21,105 bases of DNA, from IMG/VR virus record IMGVR_UViG_2657245439_000019, one strand, 5' to 3'. The notes under the pieces are model-generated. The model searched no databases and was not told the origin of the DNA. It saw only the letters and a program-made list of their open reading frames with translations. A program made the translations under genes and the position numbers. This document shows positions 3,238 to 21,105 of the stretch, piece by piece; within the stretch, counting starts at the first letter, position 1, and every line of letters begins with the position of its first letter. The DNA is from a virus. Its lineage: Duplodnaviria > Heunggongvirae > Uroviricota > Caudoviricetes.

Positions 3238-3509
3238 GTATTCGTATTGAAATTGGCAAACGTTATGTCGTTACCAGTGACAGCTTTCAGTTTATTCTCC
3301 ACGAGAAAAAGAGAGCGGAAAGCGGTAAAAACGCCGGTCAGGAATGGCTGGCGGTGGTTGGTTATTACCCGAAATTAGGCCAGCTCGTTTCCGGCCTGAT
3401 GCATCACGATATTCTGACCGGAAGCGCAAAATCTTTTGCTGATTTAAACGCGCAGGTTGAGCAACTCAGCAAGCGTTGTTCAGAGGCTTTTGGCTCATAT
3501 GGCCGTTAA
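3234..3509 (+). CDS. Hypothetical early protein (P2 orf83 position)
   Basis: 91-aa ORF, coupled to the zinc-finger ORF upstream and overlapping the A start. Confidence 0.5.
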   Translation: MSIRIEIGKRYVVTSDSFQFILHEKKRAESGKNAGQEWLAVVGYYPKLGQLVSGLMHHDILTGSAKSFADLNAQVEQLSKRCSEAFGSYGR

Positions 3510-5775
3510 AGCCTCCGGGCGTTTTGTCCCTCCGTCAGCATTTACCGCAGGCACCGGTAAGGCGTTTACCGGTGCTTATGCATGGAACGCGCCACGCGAG
3601 GCTGTCGGGCGCGAAAGACCTCTTACACGTGACGAGATGCGTCAGGTGCAAGGTGTTTTATCCACGATTAACCGCCTGCCTTACTTTTTGCGCTCGCTGT
3701 TTACTTCACGCTATGACTACATCCGGCGCAATAAAAGCCCGGTGCACGGGTTTTATTTCCTCACATCTACTTTTCAGCGTCGTTTATGGCCGCGCATTGA
3801 GCGTGTGAATCAGCGCCATGAAATGAACACCGACGCGTCGTTGCTGTTTCTGGCAGAGCGTGACCACTATGCGCGCCTGCCGGGAATGAATGACAAGGAG
3901 CTGAAAAAGTTTGCCGCCCGTATCTCATCGCAGCTTTTCATGATGTATGAGGAACTCTGCGATGCATGGGTTGATGCGCATGGTGAAAAAGAATCGCTGT
4001 TTACGGATGAGGCGCAGGCTCACCTGTATGGTCATGTTGCTGGCGCTGCACGTGCTTTCAATATTTCCCCGCTCTACTGGAAAAAATACCGTAAAGGACA
4101 GATGACCACGAAGCAGGCATATTCTGCCATTGCCCGCCTGTTTAACGATGAGTGGTGGACTCATCAGCTTAAAGGCCAGCGTATGCGCTGGCATGAGGCG
4201 TTACTGATAGCTGTCGGGGAGGTCAATAAAGACCGTTCTCCTTATGCCAGTAAACACGCCATTCGTGATGTGCGTGCGCGCCGCCAGGCAAATCTGGAAT
4301 TTCTTAAATCGTGTGACCTTGAAAACAGGGAAACCGGCGAGCGCATCGACCTTATCAGTAAGGTGATGGGCAGTATTTCTAATCCTGAAATTCGCCGGAT
4401 GGAGCTGATGAACACCATTGCCGGTATTGAGCGTTACGCCGCCGCAGAGGGTGATGTGGGGATGTTTATCACGCTGACCGCGCCGTCAAAGTATCACCCG
4501 ACACGTCAGGTCGGAAAAGGCGAAAGTAAAACCGTTCAGCTTAATCACGGCTGGAACGATGAGGCATTTAATCCAAAGGATGCGCAGCGTTATCTCTGCC
4601 GTATCTGGAGCCTGATGCGCACGGCATTCAAGGATAATGATTTACAGGTCTACGGTTTGCGAGTCGTCGAGCCACACCACGACGGAACGCCGCACTGGCA
4701 TATGATGCTTTTTTGTCATCCACGCCAGCGTAACCAGATTATCGAAATCATGCGTCGCTATGCGCTCAAAGAGGATGGCGACGAAAGAGGAGCCGCGCGA
4801 AACCGTTTTCAGGCAAAACACCTTAACCGGGGCGGTGCTGCGGGATATATCGCGAAATACATTTCAAAAAACATCGACGGCTATGCACTGGATGGTCAGC
4901 TCGATAACGACACCGGCAGGCCGCTGAAAGACACTGCAGCGGCTGTTACCGCATGGGCGTCAACGTGGCGCATTCCGCAATTTAAAACGGTTGGCCTGCC
5001 GACAATGGGGGCTTACCGTGAACTACGCAAATTGCCTCGCGGCGTCAGCATTGCTGATGAGTTTGACGAGCGCGTCGAGGCTGCACGCGCCGCCGCAGAC
5101 AGTGGTGATTTTGCGCTGTATATCAGCGCGCAGGGCGGGGCAAATGTCCCGCGCGATTGTCAGACTGTCAGGGTCGCCCGTAGTCTGTCGGATGACGTTA
5201 ACGAGTACGAGGAAGAAGTCGAGAGAGTGGTCGGCATTTACGCGCCGCATCTCGGCGCGCGTCATATTCATATCACCAGAACGACGGACTGGCGCATTGT
5301 GCCGAAAGTTCCGGTCGTTGAGCCTTTGACTTTAAAAAGCGGCATCGCCGCGCCTCGGAGTCCTGTCAATAACTGTGGAAAGCTCACCGGTGGTGATACT
5401 TCGTTACCGGCTCCCACACCTTCTGAGCACGCCGCAGCAGTGCTTAATCTGGTAGATGACGGTGTTATCGAATGGAGTGACCCGGAGGTCGTGATGGCGC
5501 TCAGGGGCGCATTAAAACACGGACTGAGAACACCAAATCGTCAGCAAAGAAACGGAATCCCGTTAAAACCGCATGAAATTGCACCATCTGCCAGACTGAC
5601 CAGGTCTGAACGATTGCAAATTACCCGTATCCGCGTTGACCTCGCTCAGAACGGTATCAGGCCGCAACGATGGGAGCTTGAGGCGCTGGCGCGTGGCGCG
5701 ACCGTAAATTATGACGGGAAAAAATTCACGTATCCGGTTGCTGATGAGTGGCCGGGGTTCTCGTTACCCATTTGA
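3499..5775 (+). CDS. A: Replication initiation endonuclease gpA (rolling-circle initiator)
   Basis: ORF 3457..5775. Chosen start is the Met at 3499 (MAVKASGRFVPP...). HUH-type motif HWHMM is encoded at 4692-4706 and a YxxxY motif (AGYIAKYISK) at about 4840-4870. Long stretches match my recollection of P2 gpA. Confidence 0.9.
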   Translation: MAVKASGRFVPPSAFTAGTGKAFTGAYAWNAPREAVGRERPLTRDEMRQVQGVLSTINRLPYFLRSLFTSRYDYIRRNKSPVHGFYFLTSTFQRRLWPRIERVNQRHEMNTDASLLFLAERDHYARLPGMNDKELKKFAARISSQLFMMYEELCDAWVDAHGEKESLFTDEAQAHLYGHVAGAARAFNISPLYWKKYRKGQMTTKQAYSAIARLFNDEWWTHQLKGQRMRWHEALLIAVGEVNKDRSPYASKHAIRDVRARRQANLEFLKSCDLENRETGERIDLISKVMGSISNPEIRRMELMNTIAGIERYAAAEGDVGMFITLTAPSKYHPTRQVGKGESKTVQLNHGWNDEAFNPKDAQRYLCRIWSLMRTAFKDNDLQVYGLRVVEPHHDGTPHWHMMLFCHPRQRNQIIEIMRRYALKEDGDERGAARNRFQAKHLNRGGAAGYIAKYISKNIDGYALDGQLDNDTGRPLKDTAAAVTAWASTWRIPQFKTVGLPTMGAYRELRKLPRGVSIADEFDERVEAARAAADSGDFALYISAQGGANVPRDCQTVRVARSLSDDVNEYEEEVERVVGIYAPHLGARHIHITRTTDWRIVPKVPVVEPLTLKSGIAAPRSPVNNCGKLTGGDTSLPAPTPSEHAAAVLNLVDDGVIEWSDPEVVMALRGALKHGLRTPNRQQRNGIPLKPHEIAPSARLTRSERLQITRIRVDLAQNGIRPQRWELEALARGATVNYDGKKFTYPVADEWPGFSLPI

Positions 5776-5990
5776 GTAAAAACACAACGTGATTTGATAT
5801 GGCATTGAATGGCTTATGCGGAGCAGTTATGGGGCAGCAGAAGGTCAATAGCATGCTGAATTAGAAGGCTAAATGCTATTGAGTGACTAGCATGTCGGTA
5901 AGGACAGCCGTTTGATCCGGGTCATAAAAGGCCATCCATTTAGTCTAATAAAATCATTGCGGGTAACCTTATGTCGACGCATAATTCGTC

Positions 5991-6005
5991 TTGAGCGAAG
6001 TCTTG
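5991..6005. repeat. 15-bp exact direct repeat, copy 1 (TTGAGCGAAGTCTTG)
   Basis: Identical 15-mer recurs at 6255-6269. The two copies bracket the bidirectional terminator and the small minus-strand ORF. Confidence 0.6.
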
Positions 6006-6035
6006 TCAGTCTTTCATCGTATTGATGATGGGCGC

Positions 6036-6069
6036 AAAAAAACCACCCTGGCAGGTGGTTTTTTTGTTT
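6036..6069. terminator. Bidirectional rho-independent terminator
   Basis: A-run (6036-6042), stem AACCACC (6041-6047), loop CTGGCA, stem GGTGGTT (6054-6060), then T-run (6059-6065). Symmetric A/T flanks allow termination on both strands. Confidence 0.65.
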
Positions 6070-6077
6070 GAAGCATA

Positions 6078-6191
6078 TTAAAGCATAATGCTGACATTGA
6101 TATTACTGACGTTTACTGACAAACCACTCGGACTACCGTTTGGATAGCCAAAGAGGGCCAGAACGAGAATGCAGTAATAGCATTTCTTCAT
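6078..6191 (-). CDS. Hypothetical small protein, 37 aa (MKKCYYCILVLALFGYPNGSPSGLSVNVSNINVSIML)
   Basis: ATG at 6189-6191 (minus) with AGGAGG Shine-Dalgarno 4 nt upstream. Stop at 6078-6080, followed by the bidirectional terminator. Hydrophobic N-terminal segment. An in-frame upstream ATG at 6344 would give 88 aa but has no RBS. Confidence 0.3.
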   Translation of the reverse strand: MKKCYYCILVLALFGYPNGSPSGLSVNVSNINVSIML

Positions 6192-6254
6192 ATTGCCTCC
6201 TGTAAGTAGAGGGCAACTTCCACCGGTATATGCGCTTCTTAGGTGGAATGACTT

Positions 6255-6269
6255 TTGAGCGAAGTCTTG
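6255..6269. repeat. 15-bp exact direct repeat, copy 2 (TTGAGCGAAGTCTTG)
   Basis: Identical to 5991-6005. Lies in the 5' leader region of the small minus-strand ORF. Confidence 0.6.
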
Positions 6270-6669
6270 CCCTGAAATAATGCTCTGTTTAAACGCAAAG
6301 TGATTTGGCATATCACCGAACAGAGAGCCGGAAAAACACAACATATAGTATGTCGTTGTTTCTAGACATACATTCTATGTTGTGTAACAAGGGCTTTGCA
6401 TTAAACATGTTTGAGATTTTATTGATGTAGCTCAAAGTAAAAAACAGAGACTACGGATGATAAGGTCTTGAAAGCAATGTAAATTTTTTAAGGTTGCCAA
6501 TTGCTTAAAAATGTACAGTTGCGGTATGGCGTACTTAAAAAGCTATGCATGCAACAAGTGAATGTTTTTGCATGCGTTGGGGATGTCCGTTCAGGCTGCG
6601 TGCGGTCAGGACTGGTGCGGATCCATAGTATCTATGCAACTGCATTAAAACCGCCCCGTGAAGCGGGCG

Positions 6670-6688
6670 GGCGAGGCGGGGAAAGCAC
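6670..6688. other. cos cohesive-end sequence (P2/P4 type)
   Basis: GGCGAGGCGGGGAAAGCAC at 6670-6688 matches the 19-nt P2 cohesive end as I remember it. It sits between the A-distal cargo and Q, where cos lies in a P2 prophage, with GC-rich dyad CCGCCCCGTGAAGCGGGCGG just upstream. Confidence 0.6.
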
Positions 6689-6830
6689 TGCGCGCTGGCG
6701 GTGGTGCTGATTTTATTTTTTCAGCGTCTCAGCGCGTCGTAATGGCGTTTAGATTGTGCGCCGGGGCGTTGGTTTGTCTGCGGGCTGTTTTGCGCGGTGG
6801 TGAGCGTGTGAGGGCGTGATGACGGGGTGT

Positions 6831-6852
6831 AAAAAAGCCGCCCGCAGGCGGC
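6831..6852 (-). terminator. Rho-independent terminator downstream of Q (minus strand)
   Basis: On the minus strand, stem GCCGCC, loop TGCG, stem GGCGGC, then TTTTTT, directly after the Q stop codon. Confidence 0.55.
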
Positions 6853-6857
6853 GATGT

Positions 6858-7892
6858 TCAGCCGTTGTCAGTGTCCAGTGAGTAGTTTTTAAAGCGGATG
6901 ACCTCCTGACCGAGCCAGCCGTTTATTTCCCGAATCCTGTCCTGTAACGGGATAAGCTCATTGCGGACAAAGACCTTTGCCACTTTCTCAATATCACCCA
7001 GCGACCCGACGTTCTCCGGCTTGCCGCCCATCAACTGAAAGGGGATGCGGTGCGCGTCCAGCAGGTCTGCGGCGCTGGCTTTTTTGATATTAAAAAAATC
7101 GTCCTTCGTTGCCACTTCACTGAGCGGGATAATTTTAATGCCGTCGGCTTTCCCCTGCGGGGCATAGAGAAACAGATTTTTAAAGTTATTGCGGCCTTTT
7201 GACTTAACCATGTTTTCGCGGAGCATTTCGATATCGTTGCGATCCTGCACGGCATCAGTGACGTACATGATGTATCCGGCATGTGCGCCGTTTTCGTAAT
7301 ACTTGCGGCGGAACAGCGTGGCCGACTCATTCAGCCAGGCAGAGTTAAGGGCGCTGAGATATTCCGGCAGGCCGTACAGCTCCTGATTAATATCAGGCTC
7401 CAGCAGGTGAAACACGGAGCCGGGCGCGAAAGCTGTCGGCTCGTTGAAGGACGGCACCCACCAGTAAACATCCTCCTCCACGCCACGACGGGTATATTTG
7501 GCCGGTGAGGTTTCCAGTCTGATGACCTTACCGGTGGTGCTGTAACGCTTTTCCAGAAACGCATTACCGAACACCAGAAAATCCAGCACAAAACGGCTGA
7601 AATCCTGCTGGGAAAGCCACGGGTGCGGGATAAACGTTGAAGCCAGAATATTACGTTTGACGTAAATCGGTGAACTGTGATGCACGGCAGCACGCAGACT
7701 TTTTGCCAGACCGGTAAAGCTGACCGGCGGCTCATACCATCTGCCGTTACTGATGCATTCGACGTAATCCAGAATGTCACGGCGGTCGAGTACCGGCACC
7801 GGCTCGCCAAAGGTGAATGCCTCCATTTTCGGGGCGCTGGCGGTCATTGTTTTTGCCGCAGGTTGCGGTGTTTTCCCTTTTTTCTTGCTCAT
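6858..7892 (-). CDS. Q: Portal protein gpQ
   Basis: 344-aa ORF starting MSKKKGKTPQPAAKTMTA..., which matches P2 Q as I recall it. Start ATG overlaps the P stop (ATGA). Confidence 0.9.
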   Translation of the reverse strand: MSKKKGKTPQPAAKTMTASAPKMEAFTFGEPVPVLDRRDILDYVECISNGRWYEPPVSFTGLAKSLRAAVHHSSPIYVKRNILASTFIPHPWLSQQDFSRFVLDFLVFGNAFLEKRYSTTGKVIRLETSPAKYTRRGVEEDVYWWVPSFNEPTAFAPGSVFHLLEPDINQELYGLPEYLSALNSAWLNESATLFRRKYYENGAHAGYIMYVTDAVQDRNDIEMLRENMVKSKGRNNFKNLFLYAPQGKADGIKIIPLSEVATKDDFFNIKKASAADLLDAHRIPFQLMGGKPENVGSLGDIEKVAKVFVRNELIPLQDRIREINGWLGQEVIRFKNYSLDTDNG

Positions 7893-11827: not shown

Positions 11828-12571
11828 ATGACGAGTCCCGCACAGCGCCACATGATGCGGGTCTCGGCAGCGATGACCGCGCAGCGGGAAGCCGCCCCGC
11901 TGCGACATGCAACTGTCTATGAGCAGATGCTGGTCAAGCTGGCCGCAGACCAGCGCACACTGAAAGCGATTTATTCAAAAGAGCTGAAGGCCGCGAAAAA
12001 ACGCGAACTGCTGCCGTTCTGGTTGCCGTGGGTGAACGGCGTGCTGGAGCAGGGCAAAGGCGCACAGGATGACATTCTGATGACGGTCATGCTGTGGCGT
12101 CTGGATACCGGCGATATTGCCGGTGCGCTGGAGATTGCCCGTTATGCCCTGAAGTACGGTCTGACCATGCCGGGTAAACACCGCCGCACCCCGTCGTACA
12201 TGTTCACCGAGGAGGTGGCGCTTGCGGCCATGCGCGCTCACGCTGCCGGTGAGTCTGTGGATACCCGCCTGCTGACGGACACCCTTGAACTGACCGCCAC
12301 GGCTGACATGCCTGATGAAGTGCGCGCAAAGCTGCACAAAATCACTGGTCTGTTTCTGCGTGACGGTGGTGATGCCGCAGGTGCGCTGGCGCACCTGCAA
12401 CGTGCGACACAGCTCGACTGTCAGGCAGGCGTCAAAAAAGAGATTGAACGACTGGAGCGGGAGCTGAAACCGAAGCCGGAGCCGCAGCCAAAAGCGGCCA
12501 CCCGCGCCCCGCGTAAGACCCGGAGCGTGACACCGGCAAAACGTGGACGCCCGAAAAAGAAAGCCAGTTAA
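11828..12571 (+). CDS. M: Terminase small (endonuclease) subunit gpM
   Basis: 247-aa ORF after N with a basic, Lys/Arg/Pro-rich C-terminal tail. Size and position match P2 M. Confidence 0.85.
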   Translation: MTSPAQRHMMRVSAAMTAQREAAPLRHATVYEQMLVKLAADQRTLKAIYSKELKAAKKRELLPFWLPWVNGVLEQGKGAQDDILMTVMLWRLDTGDIAGALEIARYALKYGLTMPGKHRRTPSYMFTEEVALAAMRAHAAGESVDTRLLTDTLELTATADMPDEVRAKLHKITGLFLRDGGDAAGALAHLQRATQLDCQAGVKKEIERLERELKPKPEPQPKAATRAPRKTRSVTPAKRGRPKKKAS

Positions 12572-12670
12572 CAACCGAATGCGCCCCGCGCCAGGGCGGC
12601 ACGCCGGTCAGTGAGGGTGAATCACCTGACACTGCACCGGCGTCCACCGCCCGACTTTTCAGAGGTAGTC

Positions 12671-13180
12671 ATGATGACGCTGATTATTCCGCGAAAGGAG
12701 GCTCCTGTATCCGGTGAGGGTACGGTGGTCATCCCGCAACCGGCAGGCGACGAGCCGGTGATTAAAAACACGTTCTTTTTTCCCGATATCGACCCGAAGC
12801 GCGTCCGGGAACGTATGCGCCTTGAGCAGACCGTCGCCCCCGCCCGTCTGCGTGAGGCCATCAAGTCAGGCATGGCGGAGACGAATGCGGAGCTGTACGA
12901 GTACCGCGAACAGAAAATTGCCGCCGGTTTTACGCGTCTGGCGGACGTTCCGGCGGACGGCATCGACGGTGAAAGCATCAAAGTTTTTTACTACGAGCGC
13001 GCCGTGTGTGCGATGGCGACCGCGTCGCTTTATGAGCGTTATCGCGGCGTGGATGCCAGTGCGAAAGGCGACAAGAAGGCTGACAGCATTGACAGCACCA
13101 TTGATGAACTTTGGCGGGATATGCGCTGGGCGGTGGCGCGTATCCAGGACAAGCCGCGCTGCATCGTGAGTCAAATCTGA
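12671..13180 (+). CDS. L: Head completion / stabilisation protein gpL
   Basis: ORF 12611..13180. Chosen start is MMTLIIPRKEAPV... at 12671, with GAGGTAG RBS upstream, giving 169 aa like P2 L. Confidence 0.8.
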   Translation: MMTLIIPRKEAPVSGEGTVVIPQPAGDEPVIKNTFFFPDIDPKRVRERMRLEQTVAPARLREAIKSGMAETNAELYEYREQKIAAGFTRLADVPADGIDGESIKVFYYERAVCAMATASLYERYRGVDASAKGDKKADSIDSTIDELWRDMRWAVARIQDKPRCIVSQI

Positions 13181-13383
13181 TGAAGACCTTTGCGCTACAG
13201 GGCGACACGCTCGATGCCATTTGTGTCCGGTATTACGGGCGCACTGAGGGCGTGGTTGAGACCGTGCTCGCCGCAAATCCGGGACTGGCTGAACTGGGGG
13301 CGGTGCTGCCGCACGGCATCGCCGTCGAACTGCCAGACGTTCAGACCGCGCCCGTGGCTGAAACTGTCAATCTGTGGGAGTAA
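13180..13383 (+). CDS. X: Tail protein gpX
   Basis: 67-aa ORF starting at the ATG overlapping the L stop (TGATG): MKTFALQGDTLDAICVRYYGRTEG.... Confidence 0.75.
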   Translation: MKTFALQGDTLDAICVRYYGRTEGVVETVLAANPGLAELGAVLPHGIAVELPDVQTAPVAETVNLWE

Positions 13384-13386
13384 CGC

Positions 13387-13668
13387 ATGACAGCAGAAGA
13401 AAAAAGCGTCCTGTCGCTTTTCATGATTGGGGTGCTGATTGTTGTCGGCAAGGTGCTTGCCGGTGGTGAACCCATCACCCCGCGTCTGTTTATCGGGCGC
13501 ATGTTGCTCGGTGGTTTTGTCTCGATGGTTGCCGGTGTTGTTCTGGTGCAGTTTCCTGACCTGTCACTGCCTGCGGTGTGCGGTATCGGCTCCATGCTGG
13601 GTATCGCCGGTTATCAGGTGATTGAGATTGCCATTCAGCGCCGCTTTAAGGGCAGGGGGAAACAGTAA
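13387..13668 (+). CDS. Y: Holin gpY
   Basis: 93-aa ORF with hydrophobic transmembrane-like segments and a charged C-terminus (RRFKGRGKQ). First gene of the lysis cassette. Confidence 0.8.
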   Translation: MTAEEKSVLSLFMIGVLIVVGKVLAGGEPITPRLFIGRMLLGGFVSMVAGVVLVQFPDLSLPAVCGIGSMLGIAGYQVIEIAIQRRFKGRGKQ

Positions 13669-14165
13669 TGCCGGTAATTAACATGCATCAGAATATCGCC
13701 GCCTTTCTCGACATGCTGGCCGTGTCCGAAGGGACGGCGAACCATCCGCTGACGAAAAACCGGGGCTATGACGTGATAGTCACCGGACTGGATGGAAAGC
13801 CGGAAATCTTCACCGACTACAGTGACCACCCGTTCGCACATGGTCGACCGGCGAAGGTGTTTAACCGTCGCGGTGAAAAATCCACGGCCTCCGGTCGCTA
13901 TCAGCAGCTTTACCTGTTCTGGCCGCATTACCGCAAACAGCTTGCCCTGCCGGATTTCAGTCCGTTGTCACAGGACAGACTCGCCATTCAGTTGATCCGC
14001 GAACGCGGTGCGCTGGATGACATCCGGGCGGGACGCATTGAGCGCGCCATTTCACGCTGTTGCAATATCTGGGCGTCCCTGCCGGGTGCCGGTTACGGTC
14101 AGCGTGAGCATTCACTGGAAAAACTGGTCACCGTCTGGCGTACCGCTGGCGGCGTACCGGCTTAA
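13668..14165 (+). CDS. K: Endolysin (lysozyme) gpK
   Basis: 165-aa ORF with an E...D...T arrangement (AVSEGT...YDVIVTGLDG) typical of phage lysozymes. TAATG overlap with Y. Confidence 0.85.
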   Translation: MPVINMHQNIAAFLDMLAVSEGTANHPLTKNRGYDVIVTGLDGKPEIFTDYSDHPFAHGRPAKVFNRRGEKSTASGRYQQLYLFWPHYRKQLALPDFSPLSQDRLAIQLIRERGALDDIRAGRIERAISRCCNIWASLPGAGYGQREHSLEKLVTVWRTAGGVPA

Positions 14166-17997: not shown

Positions 17998-18601
17998 TTC
18001 GCGACTGCTGCCGACCGGCTCATCACCGCTTGAAGTCGCCGCCGCAAAAGCCTGTGCGGAAATTGAAAAAACGCCGGTCAGTATTCGTGAGCTGTGGAAC
18101 CCGGATACCTGTCCGGCAAATCTGCTGCCGTGGCTGGCGTGGTCATTTTCGGTTGACCGCTGGGATGATAAATGGCCGGAAGCGACAAAACGCGCTGTTA
18201 TCCGCGATGCGTATTTCATTCACTGCCATAAGGGCACTATAGGCGCAATCCGGCGTGTGGTGGAGCCGCTCGGCTATCTGATTGAGGTAAGGGAGTGGTG
18301 GCAGCTCAACGAGGAGCCGGGGACGTTCCGTATCGTTGTTGGTGTGCTTGAGCAGGGTATTACCGAGGAAATGTATCAGGAGCTGGAGCGCCTCGTTGCT
18401 GATGCAAAACCGGCAAGCCGCCATCTGACGGGACTGGCTATCAGCTTAAGTACAACCGGCAACATTTTTGCCGGTGCGGGATGCTATCACGGCGACGCCC
18501 TGACGGTTTATCCCTACACCCCGGAGGCCATTATTGTCGGAGGGGATTATTTCCCGGCCTCGGCCATTCATTTAATTGATAACCTGAGAGTAAACGCATG
18601 A
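17990..18601 (+). CDS. I: Baseplate protein gpI
   Basis: 203-aa ORF between J and the tail fibre gene, overlapping both. Confidence 0.8.
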   Translation: MSDSRLLPTGSSPLEVAAAKACAEIEKTPVSIRELWNPDTCPANLLPWLAWSFSVDRWDDKWPEATKRAVIRDAYFIHCHKGTIGAIRRVVEPLGYLIEVREWWQLNEEPGTFRIVVGVLEQGITEEMYQELERLVADAKPASRHLTGLAISLSTTGNIFAGAGCYHGDALTVYPYTPEAIIVGGDYFPASAIHLIDNLRVNA

Positions 18602-20112
18602 CAGTGAAATACTACGCCATTCTGACTAATCAGGGCGCAGCACGGCTGGCTAACGCGACGATGCTCGGCAGTAAGCTGAATCTGACGCAAATGGCCGTTG
18701 GTGATGCGAATGGTGTCTTGCCGACACCAGACCCGGCACAGACAAAACTGATTAACCAGAAACGCATCGCGCCGCTGAATCTTCTGAGTGTTGACCCGAA
18801 CAACCAGAGCCAGATTATTGCGGAGCAAATCATCCCTGAGAACGAGGGCGGATTCTGGATCCGTGAGATTGGGCTTTATGATGATGAAGGCGTACTCATT
18901 GCGGTGGCGAACTGCCCGGAAACGTACAAACCGCAGTTACAGGAAGGCAGTGGTCGTACCCAGACTATCCGCATGATTCTGGTTGTCACGAATACCGAAG
19001 CCATCACGCTGAAAATCGACCCGTCGGTGGTACTGGCGACCCGTAAATACGTGGATGATGAAGTCCTGGAATTAAGGCTGTATGTGGATGACCAGATGAG
19101 AAACCACATTGCCGCACAGGATCCTCATACCCAGTATGCACAGAAACATAATCCGACATTTACCGGAGAACCAAAAGCGCCGACGCCTGCCGCAGGGAAT
19201 AACACCACGCGGATTGCGACCACTGAGCTTGTTCAGGCCGCTATTACCGCTCTGATTAACGGCGCGCCAGCCACGCTGGACACACTGAAAGAAATTGCCG
19301 CAGCCATTAACAATGACCCGAAATTCAGCACCACCATTAACAATGCGCTGGCACTGAAAGCGCCGCTGTCGAGTCCCGCACTTACCGGAACGCCAACAGC
19401 ACCTACTGCGGCACAGTCGGTCAACAATACACAGATTGCCACCACGGCTTTTGTGAAATCAGCAATTGCGGCAATGGTGGGTTCTGCCCCTGCGGCACTG
19501 GATACACTGAATGAACTGGCGGCGGCGCTGGGGAATGACCCTAACTTTTCAACAACAGTGCTTAATGCACTGGCAGGCAAACAACCGCTGGACAATACGC
19601 TTACTAATTTGAGTGGAAAGGATGTGGCTGGTCTTCTCGCATACCTTGGTTTGGGAGAAGGTTCTGCGTTGCCTGTTGGCGTACCAGTTCCTTGGCCTTC
19701 AGCTACGCCGCCGACAGGCTGGCTGAAATGCAACGGGGCTGCTTTTTCGGCTGAAGAATACCCGGAGCTGGCAAAGGCTTACCCGACAAATAAATTGCCT
19801 GATTTACGCGGTGAATTTATTCGTGGCTGGGATGACGGACGTGGAGTGGATGCCGGGCGACAATTATTATCTTCACAGGGGGATGCAATAAGAAATATTG
19901 AGGGATTCGCAGATGGCGGGATCGGCATGTCTTTTGATGCAATCAGAGGGGCTTTTTACGATGCAGGAACACGATCAGCGACAATGGCGAATAACACAAC
20001 TGCTATAGGCAAAACCGATGACCTTGGATTCGACGCCTCTCGTGTCGTGCCAACAGCTAATGAAAACCGTCCACGTAACATCGCCTTTAATTATATTGTG
20101 AGGGCTGCATAA
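18598..20112 (+). CDS. H: Tail fibre protein gpH, with a probable switchable C-terminal domain
   Basis: 504-aa ORF. N-terminus MTVKYYAILTNQGAARLANA... is typical of P2 H / Mu S fibres. Internal repeated motif NNT-x-IATT...LDTL...NDP-x-FSTT. Hin/Gin-like crossover site at codons ~346-354. Confidence 0.85.
   Translation: MTVKYYAILTNQGAARLANATMLGSKLNLTQMAVGDANGVLPTPDPAQTKLINQKRIAPLNLLSVDPNNQSQIIAEQIIPENEGGFWIREIGLYDDEGVLIAVANCPETYKPQLQEGSGRTQTIRMILVVTNTEAITLKIDPSVVLATRKYVDDEVLELRLYVDDQMRNHIAAQDPHTQYAQKHNPTFTGEPKAPTPAAGNNTTRIATTELVQAAITALINGAPATLDTLKEIAAAINNDPKFSTTINNALALKAPLSSPALTGTPTAPTAAQSVNNTQIATTAFVKSAIAAMVGSAPAALDTLNELAAALGNDPNFSTTVLNALAGKQPLDNTLTNLSGKDVAGLLAYLGLGEGSALPVGVPVPWPSATPPTGWLKCNGAAFSAEEYPELAKAYPTNKLPDLRGEFIRGWDDGRGVDAGRQLLSSQGDAIRNIEGFADGGIGMSFDAIRGAFYDAGTRSATMANNTTAIGKTDDLGFDASRVVPTANENRPRNIAFNYIVRAA
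19634..19659. other. Candidate DNA-invertase crossover site (hix/gix-like) inside H
   Basis: TTCTCGCATACCTTGGTTTGGGAGAA is a 26-bp imperfect palindrome (TTCTC...GAGAA arms, ACC-TT-GGT core). It matches hixR (TTATCAAAAACCTTGGTTTTCAAGAA, from memory) at 19 of 26 positions. Confidence 0.5.
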
Positions 20113-20705
20113 TGAAACCTGTTTTTGATGAAAATGGGCTGGCTACAGTACCGGGTAATATGCGTTGTTTTTATTATGAGGCAGTTACGTATGAATATAC
20201 TGGCTGGTCTGATGAATATATTAATACTGGCGTAAGTATGCCCGCTTGTTCCACTGGTATTGACCCGGGCGAATACATTCCGGGAAGAGTGGCAGTATTT
20301 ACGGGTAAGGGATGGAGCCATGAAGAAGACCATCGCAATGAGACTGTTTACTCAACAGAAAATGGCGCAGCTGTTACAGTGGATTATATCGGTGCCATCA
20401 AAGACGGTTATGTCACGCTTTCACCGTTAACGCCATACGATAAATGGGATGGTGAGAAATGGGTGACGGATACCGAGGCACAGCATAGCGCCGCACTAGA
20501 CGCGGCAGAAGCACAGCGCCAGTCACTGATTGATGCAGCAATGGCTTCCATTAGTCTGATTCAGCTGAAATTACAGGCCGGACGGAAACTGACTCAGGCA
20601 GAAACAACCCGACTTAACGCCGTGCTGGATTACATTGACGCGGTGACGGCAACAGATACCAGCACCGCGCCGGATGTCATCTGGCCTGAACTGCCGGAGG
20701 CGTAG
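20112..20705 (+). CDS. G: Tail fibre assembly protein gpG (Tfa)
   Basis: 197-aa ORF coupled to H (TAATG). C-terminus ...[16 protein letters not shown] is the conserved Tfa tail. Confidence 0.8.
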
Positions 20706-21105
20706 GCCATTCAATATCGGGTGCTGTTGAAGTATCAACACGCATCAGCAGCACACGGTATTTCTTCCATTCGGTGAGAGTTGAAGTTTCTTCATCAGTT
20801 GCGATATCAGCATCAACAGCATCCTGACGCCAGGATATTTCACTGTCAGCTTTTTCCCGTAATTGGGATTTTTTAACTTCAGCAATAGCTATTAATTCCT
20901 TTTTGGTCGGCTGAGGAATATCTATCAGTGCTGGTTTTCCATTCAGTGTTCCAATCTGTTTTCCTGGTGGAATATCCATAAATAACTTTTTATGTTCTTC
21001 CTCACTGACTATTACACCATCATCAGGCCACAGACCTGATGCCTCAAATTTTTCTTTCTCCGATATGGGGAAAAAGCCATTTGCTTTAGCGCTCCATACG
21101 TACAT
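20677..21105 (-). CDS. Second, inverted tail fibre assembly protein (alternative Tfa); start at or beyond the window edge
   Basis: Minus-strand ORF ending ...[31 protein letters not shown], close to the lambda Tfa C-terminus as I recall it. It converges on G and overlaps it by 29 bp. The first ATG is at 21103-21105, so the true start may lie outside the window. Confidence 0.75.

What the first reader, a model, noticed from the sequence alone, without database searches (positions are those of the whole stretch)
20112..21105. Two convergent tail-fibre assembly genes overlapping at their 3' ends
G on the plus strand and a second tfa on the minus strand both end in the conserved DTSTAPD-x-x-WP motif and overlap by 29 bp, tail to tail. 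This mirror arrangement is what is seen inside invertible tail-fibre cassettes and independently supports the shufflon-like reading of the H region. The two chaperones differ substantially in their N-terminal parts, implying two distinct fibre tips.
Basis: partly seen in the sequence, partly recalled or inferred. Interest (0 to 1): 0.55.

Follow-up and report, generated by a model that had tools for sequence, protein, structure and literature searches.

The report
Invertible tail-fibre switch of a P2-like prophage

Summary
G (20112-20705, +) and a second tfa (20677-21105, -) are both full-length Caudo_TAP chaperones. Both end in DTSTAPDxxWP, and they overlap tail to tail by 29 nt.

A 26-bp crossover site lies inside H at 19634-19659. 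The window's own source contig runs 517 nt further. That stretch holds an intact alternative fibre tip with no start codon (gp53-like) and the inverted partner site.

In the closest complete genome (E. coli elppa4, 99.78% identical) a serine invertase follows. It is 88% identical to e14 PinE and 81% to Mu Gin. Related prophages carry the same cassette flipped, with exactly the half-site exchange expected from recombination at the central dinucleotide.

The layout, including the 29-nt overlap, matches the e14 P segment. It mirrors the Mu G segment. It is a two-state serine-invertase switch, not a multi-segment shufflon. Inversion in P2-like prophages has already been shown experimentally (PMC4272514).

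Verdict: real, correctly read, already known, low interest.

The parts
18598..20112 (+). Tail-fibre gene H (504 aa) in its current orientation. Residues 1-350 are the constant part and 351-504 the exchangeable tip.
   Evidence: ORF. Pfam Phage_tail_fib N-terminal (1-150) and Collar (361-408). P2 gene order V-W-J-I-H-G.
19634..19659 (.). Left crossover site, TTCTCGCATACC TT GGTTTGGGAGAA. It is 26 bp, an imperfect palindrome, with central TT at 19646-19647 in codon 350 of H.
   Evidence: It is the only such site in the window, and none was found in 200 shuffles. It pairs as an inverted repeat with the site beyond the window. Its inner half is identical to the published e14 P-segment repeat TTGGTTTGGGAGAAGG. 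It has the same geometry as Mu gix.
19648..20112 (+). Hv, the currently expressed variable fibre tip (tail-collar type, StfE-like).
   Evidence: Pfam Collar PF07484. It is 61% identical to K-12 e14 StfE and near-identical over the first ~70 residues.
20112..20705 (+). G, the tail-fibre assembly chaperone cognate to Hv (TfaE type, 197 aa). Its ATG overlaps the H stop codon (TAATG).
   Evidence: Caudo_TAP E=1.2e-27. phrog_105. It is 63.5% identical to K-12 TfaE, with an almost identical C-terminal ~90 residues (one substitution).
20677..20705 (.). The 29-nt tail-to-tail overlap of the two chaperone genes. It encodes the residues after the WP of G and the last nine codons and stop of tfa'.
   Evidence: The overlap has the same length in L002, L004, L005, L007, K-12 e14 and nine of the ten contexts.
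20677..21105 (-). tfa', the silent-orientation chaperone (142 aa) cognate to the alternative gp53-like tip that lies just beyond the window.
   Evidence: Caudo_TAP E=1e-33. phrog_188. Its C-terminal domain matches Mu Tfa (U), PDB 5YVQ. The identical protein WP_000289820.1 is annotated in elppa4, LP50-1 and WP8-S17. In the large collection it is listed in 2689 blocks, in both orientations.

Best explanation
The two convergent tfa genes are the core of a ~1.76-kb invertible segment in a P2-like prophage. It is of the same kind as the e14 P segment, the Mu G segment and the P1 C segment.

The late operon V-W-J-I-H-G reads into the segment. The first 350 codons of H are fixed. A 26-bp crossover site sits at codons 346-354.

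In the orientation seen in the window, H continues into a tail-collar-type tip (Hv) and is followed by its chaperone G. The other half of the segment lies backwards and silent. It holds tfa' plus a 97-codon gp53-like tip (H'v) that has no start codon or promoter of its own.

A Gin/Pin-family serine invertase is encoded just outside the segment. It exchanges strands at the central TT/AA dinucleotide of the two inverted sites and flips the segment. The constant part of H then fuses in frame to H'v, giving a 447-aa fibre, and tfa' is co-transcribed.

Each chaperone has a divergent N-terminal domain that fits its own tip and a shared C-terminal domain. A lysogen population therefore releases phage with either of two receptor specificities.

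Shown here by sequence: the anatomy, the frame continuity, the sites, the invertase homology, and both orientations in nature with reciprocal half-site exchange.

Inferred: expression from the P2 late promoter, Fis/enhancer dependence, chaperone-tip specificity, the change in host range, and activity in this particular strain.
For: - Sites: the left site is at window 19634-19659. The right site is in inverted orientation at L006 8792-8817, equivalent to window 21389-21414. The central dinucleotides are TT and AA. Each locus has exactly two sites, and none appeared in shuffles.
- Source contig: L006 is identical to the last 8508 nt of the window. It shows H'v open from the site to a TGA one nucleotide before the tfa' ATG, with stop codons just outside the site and no start codon of its own.
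- Frame continuity: simulated inversion gives a 447-aa H'. H genes of 447 aa are annotated in the flipped genomes.
- Invertase: in elppa4 it has Resolvase and HTH_7 domains and Ser9. It scores E=6e-94 against the Gin structure 3UJ3, and is 88% identical to K-12 PinE and 81% to Mu Gin.
- Flipped genomes: LP50-1 carries G, tfa' and H'v inverted at 97.5% identity. Its hybrid sites are TTCTCGCATACC TT GGTTTTGGAGAA and TTCTCCCAAACC AA CGTTT..., which is the reciprocal exchange of inner half-sites expected.
- Both states occur in e14-like elements and in P2-like prophages.
- The architecture is the same as in K-12 e14 (stfP-tfaP / tfaE-stfE-pinE, 29-nt overlap) and Mu (S-U / U'-S'-gin).
- Literature: inversion was shown by reads and PCR in e14 and in P2-like prophages of EPEC (PMC4272514). 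The e14 P segment has the same repeat (PMC12529663).
Against: - The invertase gene and the right site are outside the window.
- The source contig ends before the invertase gene, so its presence in the window's own genome is inferred from elppa4, which is 99.78% identical.
- In elppa4 and in the source contig, a ~650-nt insert carrying an orphan 105-aa ORF separates the right site from the invertase gene.
- In elppa4 the alternative tip has an extra C (C6 instead of C5), which truncates H' to 398 aa. The source contig has C5.
- A recombinational enhancer with Fis sites could not be identified convincingly.
- No read-level data were available to show switching within one culture.
Confidence: 0.9

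Rival explanations
1. Locked fossil. The segment once inverted but is now frozen in this strain, so the minus-strand tfa' and its tip are unexpressed leftovers.
For: The invertase is not seen on the source contig. A 650-nt insertion lies between the right site and the invertase gene. The sister strain elppa4 has a frameshift in the silent tip. Some related loci have truncated invertases, for example a 42-aa Resolvase fragment in L017.
Against: Both sites are intact. tfa' is identical at protein level to copies in the expressed orientation. H'v is intact in the source contig. The elppa4 invertase is full length with its catalytic Ser. Enhancers of this invertase family are known to act at a variable distance (my own knowledge, not tested here).
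Confidence: 0.07
2. Host-serving switch. The inversion mainly serves the bacterium, by producing a gp53-like-tipped fibre protein that blocks adsorption of other phages, as reported for e14 StfE2.
For: The alternative tip is a gp53-like_C domain, as in StfE2. The same module occurs at 98.6% identity in an e14-like element.
Against: Over the ~31 kb examined here, the prophage looks complete, with int, replication, head, tail and lysis genes. Fibre switching for the phage's own host range is therefore the simpler reading. The tip in this window shows no BLAST similarity to K-12 StfP.
Confidence: 0.02
3. Multi-segment shufflon (R64 Rci type or p15B Min type) that generates more than two fibre variants.
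For: A four-variant shufflon exists in another P2-like prophage of EPEC.
Against: There are exactly two crossover sites and two cassettes in this locus and its relatives. The recombinase is a serine invertase, not a tyrosine recombinase.
Confidence: 0.01

Closest known systems
e14 P segment with PinE (E. coli K-12: stfP-tfaP / tfaE-stfE / pinE)
   Same: The order and orientation of the parts are the same, and the chaperone genes overlap by the same 29 nt. The inner half-site TTGGTTTGGGAGAAGG is identical. The segment lengths are close: 1756 nt centre to centre here, against a published 1797 bp. G is 63.5% identical to TfaE, Hv 61% to StfE, and the invertase 88% to PinE. The tail of tfa' ([15 protein letters not shown]) is identical to that of TfaP.
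   Different: Here the segment sits in an apparently complete P2-like prophage, fused to a P2-type H with a Phage_tail_fib N-terminus. In K-12 it sits in a defective element with a Mu-like baseplate. tfa' is only 33% identical to K-12 TfaP, and the gp53-like tip is not detectably similar to the K-12 StfP tip. Other e14-like elements do carry the same module at 98.6% identity. An extra 650-nt insert lies before the invertase gene.
Mu G segment with Gin (S-U / U'-S' / gin)
   Same: The layout is the mirror-image one, with a constant fibre part outside the segment and two tip-plus-chaperone cassettes converging. The sites are 26 bp with an AAACC-NN-GGTTT core. The invertase is 81% identical to Gin. 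The C-terminal domain of tfa' aligns with Mu U.
   Different: Mu U and U' do not overlap; there is a 27-nt gap between them. The Mu segment is ~3 kb. The central dinucleotide is TC/GA rather than TT/AA. The tips are unrelated in sequence.
Invertible tail-fibre loci of P2-like prophages in EPEC E2348/69 (Goldberg et al. 2014, PMC4272514)
   Same: The host phage type is the same, and the paper shows a simple two-variant inversion experimentally with reads and PCR.
   Different: I did not compare the sequences directly. One of the EPEC loci is a four-variant shufflon, which this locus is not.

Membership tests
Gin/Hin/Cin/Pin-type invertible tail-fibre segment | An adjacent small serine recombinase with an N-terminal resolvase domain, a catalytic Ser near residue 9-10 and a C-terminal HTH. 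| tested here: met
   Seen in elppa4, outside the window. PF00239 and PF02796 match and Ser9 is present. E=6e-94 to Gin 3UJ3, 88% identity to PinE and 81% to Gin. It is not visible on the source contig, which ends too early.
Gin/Hin/Cin/Pin-type invertible tail-fibre segment | Two 26-bp imperfectly palindromic crossover sites in inverted orientation with matching central dinucleotides. | tested here: met
   Window 19634-19659 and L006 8792-8817, with central TT and AA. Each locus has exactly two sites and shuffles gave none.
Gin/Hin/Cin/Pin-type invertible tail-fibre segment | One site lies inside the fibre gene, so that inversion swaps the C-terminal tip in frame. | tested here: met
   The site covers codons 346-354 of H. 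Simulated inversion gives an in-frame 447-aa H', matching the annotated 447-aa H in flipped genomes.
Gin/Hin/Cin/Pin-type invertible tail-fibre segment | Two convergent cassettes, each a fibre tip plus its own Tfa chaperone, with the silent one lacking a start codon. | tested here: met
   Hv-G and tfa'-H'v. H'v has stop codons just outside the site and no initiation codon of its own.
Gin/Hin/Cin/Pin-type invertible tail-fibre segment | Both orientations occur, with reciprocal exchange of half-sites. | tested here: met
   Shown across genomes, not within one culture: L001, L002 and L006 against L004 and L007, and the e14-like loci L011, L016 and L018 against L017 and L019.
Gin/Hin/Cin/Pin-type invertible tail-fibre segment | A Fis-bound recombinational enhancer in the 5' part of the invertase gene. 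| tested here: inconclusive
   A loose scan for the Fis consensus found candidates at nt 94 and 131 of the elppa4 gene. Only one of them is shared with pinE, and their spacing (37 nt) differs from the 48 bp I recall for the Hin enhancer.
Gin/Hin/Cin/Pin-type invertible tail-fibre segment | Switching within a clonal population (phase variation). | not testable with these tools
   This needs raw reads or PCR. It has been shown for e14 and for P2-like prophages in PMC4272514.
Shufflon (R64 Rci type, or multi-segment) | A tyrosine recombinase (Rci) and three or more recombination sites bounding several segments. | tested here: not met
   The recombinase is of the serine type, and there are only two sites.
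Caudo_TAP tail-fibre assembly chaperones (PF02413) | A match to the family profile above the gathering threshold, with a conserved C-terminal domain. | tested here: met
   G scores 97 bits and tfa' 116.7 bits against a cut-off of 22.1. The C-terminus of tfa' aligns with Mu Tfa in 5YVQ. G has no PDB sequence match.
P2-like (Peduovirus-type) prophage | The P2 gene order: int-C-cox...A, Q-P / O-N-M-L-X-lysis-R-S-V-W-J-I-H-G ... FI-FII-E-T-U-D-ogr. | tested here: met
   RefSeq annotation of the 99.78%-identical elppa4 prophage between cpxP and fieF. Pfam families along L006 agree.

The most novel reading that the evidence does not exclude
The evidence does not exclude two readings. First, in this complete P2-like prophage the flip to the gp53-like tip might also protect the lysogen against other phages by blocking adsorption, as reported for e14 StfE2. 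Second, the ~650-nt insert with an orphan 105-aa gene, wedged between the right crossover site and the invertase gene at the P2 Z/fun moron position, might be an undescribed accessory or defence gene whose expression is coupled to the switch.
Probability: 0.07. Interest if true: 0.4.

Novelty: already known. Interest (0 to 1): 0.15.

Why it matters
For annotation, it shows that the gene callers' 'extra' tfa and the short 'gp53-like' or 'hypothetical' fragment belong to one functional switch. It also shows that the fibre gene of this prophage has two alternative 3' ends, giving products of 504 aa or 447 aa. For biology it adds nothing new. Tail-fibre inversion by Gin/Pin-type invertases has been known since the 1980s and has been demonstrated in P2-like prophages.

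Tried and rejected
- An exact 40-mer of the window's H allele searched in IMG/VR viral contigs gave no match. The source was found instead by exact-protein look-up of H.
- NCBIfam has no specific model for either chaperone, for H or for the orphan ORF. For the invertase it gave only sub-threshold hits to other serine recombinases.
- A PDB sequence search with G found nothing.
- The promoter and terminator scan over H through the right site was no richer than shuffles (5 against 4.9 and 5 against 3.1). It gives no evidence for an independent promoter for tfa'.
- The Fis-site scan was inconclusive.
- Rfam found nothing in the whole window.
- The shufflon (multi-site) reading was rejected because only two sites exist.
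- The pseudogene reading of tfa' was rejected because the protein is full length and identical to copies in the expressed orientation.
- I considered whether the elppa4 C6 frameshift applies to the window's genome. It does not, because the source contig has C5.

Full report
**Observation**

The window's last kilobase holds two ORFs. G runs 20112-20705 on the + strand (197 aa). A second tfa runs 20677-21105 on the - strand (142 aa), with its ATG at the last three bases of the window. They share 20677-20705, which is 29 nt.

G ends [16 protein letters not shown] and the second protein ends [19 protein letters not shown]. Both match Pfam Caudo_TAP (PF02413) at E=1.2e-27 and 1e-33. Pairwise they align only over the C-terminal ~80 residues (30% identity, E=3e-6). 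They belong to different PHROG families, phrog_105 and phrog_188.

**Context and source**

The window is the left two thirds of a P2-like prophage: int, C, cox, A, Q, P, O, N, M, L, X, lysis genes, R, S, V, W, J, I, H, G. It is 99.78% identical, with 47 mismatches and no gaps, to a prophage of E. coli elppa4 that lies between cpxP and fieF.

An exact-protein look-up of H found NCBI assembly GCA_001266385.1, contig JHTH01000018.1 (locus L006). Its sequence is identical to the last 8508 nt of the window and continues 517 nt further before the contig ends. I treat it as the window's own source.

**What lies around the pair**

A 26-bp imperfect palindrome, TTCTCGCATACC TT GGTTTGGGAGAA, sits inside H at 19634-19659 (codons 346-354). 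It is the only such site in the window, and 200 shuffles produced none.

Its inverted partner, TTCTCCAAAACC AA CGTTTTATGGAA, lies at L006 8792-8817. That is 284-309 nt past the window's end.

Between tfa' and that site, on the minus strand, the source contig has an open frame of 97 codons: GFGEGANWVMLPGG...IIAVGY. It runs from the site to a TGA one nucleotide before the tfa' ATG. Stop codons lie immediately outside the site, and the frame has no start codon of its own. In a relative it is annotated as a gp53-like domain protein and matches PF21882.

In elppa4 a 197-aa serine recombinase follows, then the P2 sheath gene FI. It has Resolvase and HTH_7 domains and Ser9. It scores E=6e-94 against the Gin structure 3UJ3, and is 88% identical to K-12 PinE and 81% to Mu Gin.

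**Does it invert?**

I simulated exchange at the central dinucleotide. This fuses H residues 1-350 in frame to the alternative tip and gives a 447-aa fibre followed by tfa'.

A search with that simulated junction found genomes with exactly this arrangement over the whole query: LP50-1, 28A18CPO003A and WP8-S17-ESBL-05, at 97-98% identity. In LP50-1 and WP8-S17-ESBL-05, the two I fetched, H is annotated as 447 aa and tfa' is the identical protein WP_000289820.1.

In LP50-1 the G, tfa' and H'v part of the segment is 97.5% identical to the window's, but inverted. The sites there are TTCTCGCATACC TT GGTTTTGGAGAA and TTCTCCCAAACC AA CGTTT.... The outer half-sites are kept and the inner half-sites are swapped, as reciprocal recombination predicts.

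The exact tfa' protein is very common, being listed in 2689 blocks of the collection. In nine of the ten contexts shown it converges on a 197- or 200-aa Caudo_TAP gene with the same 29-nt overlap; L010 shows no convergent partner gene. A Resolvase/HTH_7 gene is alongside in nine of the ten. P2-like prophages and e14-like elements each occur with tfa' in either orientation.

**Comparison with known systems**

K-12 e14 has stfP-tfaP converging on tfaE-stfE, followed by pinE, and tfaP and tfaE overlap by 29 nt. The published e14 repeat, TTGGTTTGGGAGAAGG, is contained in the window's site.

G is 63.5% identical to TfaE, with an almost identical C-terminal ~90 residues (one substitution). Hv is 61% identical to StfE. 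tfa' shares TfaP's C-terminal tail but is only 33% identical overall.

Mu shows the same mirror layout (S-U / U'-S' / gin). There U and U' are separated by 27 nt, and the gix sites have the same 26-bp geometry.

Inversion has been demonstrated by sequencing and PCR in e14 and in P2-like prophages of EPEC. Those include both a simple two-variant locus and a four-variant shufflon (PMC4272514).

**Mechanism**

Transcription of the late operon enters the segment from H. Whichever tip-plus-chaperone cassette faces H is expressed, and the other is silent. The invertase flips the 1756-nt segment between the two sites. The conserved C-terminal domain of the chaperones explains the shared DTSTAPDxxWP ending.

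From my own knowledge of the Mu fibre-Tfa work behind PDB 5YVQ, the divergent N-terminal domains are the parts that contact the fibre tip. That fits two different tips, tail-collar and gp53-like.

The following steps are inferred and not shown here: promoter usage, Fis/enhancer dependence, chaperone specificity and the change in host range.

**Caveats**

- The right site, the alternative tip and the invertase all lie outside the window.
- The source contig stops before the invertase gene.
- A ~650-nt insert with an orphan 105-aa ORF separates the right site from the invertase gene in elppa4 and in the source. It is absent in LR-21-1.
- elppa4 has an extra C that frameshifts the silent tip. The source does not.
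- The enhancer scan was inconclusive.
- 'Shufflon-like' is imprecise. This is a two-site, serine-invertase, two-state switch.

**Verdict**

The finding is real and correctly interpreted. It is an ordinary member of a long-known system. Interest is low.

Noticed in passing
window 5776-6857: About 1.08 kb lies between the replication gene A (3457-5775, +) and the portal gene (6858-7892, -), with no annotated gene in the near-identical elppa4 record. It holds only an 88-aa ORF (6078-6344, -) with no PHROG hit, and there is no Rfam hit. This is the P2 old/tin accessory-gene position.
   Followed up: partly
L001 11417-12057 (just beyond the window; window-equivalent ~21416-22056): A ~650-nt insert lies between the right crossover site and the invertase gene. 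It is present in elppa4 and the source contig and absent in LR-21-1. It carries a 105-aa orphan ORF (L001 11543-11860, -, WP_025210643.1) with no Pfam, NCBIfam or PHROG match. A 15-bp, 93%-complementary hairpin lies at L001 11505-11536.
   Followed up: partly
L001 ~11309 (alternative fibre tip, beyond the window): Strain elppa4 has a run of six C where the source contig, LR-21-1, LP50-1 and EC1515 have five. This truncates the flipped fibre to 398 aa. It is either a real inactivating frameshift or a homopolymer sequencing error.
   Followed up: yes
window 12061-14061: 40 of the 47 differences between the window and elppa4 cluster in this 2 kb, which covers the capsid, small terminase and head-completion genes. 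That suggests a recombination patch between otherwise near-identical prophages.
   Followed up: no
window 1 and 21105: The window begins at the stop-codon end of the integrase gene and ends exactly on the start codon of tfa'. It was therefore cut at gene boundaries, which removed the half of the invertible segment that proves the case.
   Followed up: yes
L013 (GCA_045583585.1) and L011/L016-L019: The identical 142-aa tfa' and its convergent partner occur in three different tail-module backgrounds: P2-like, e14-type with a Mu-like baseplate, and a third type with Phage_Wedge1 and Sheath_initiator genes. The cassette therefore moves as a unit between unrelated myovirus-type elements.
   Followed up: partly
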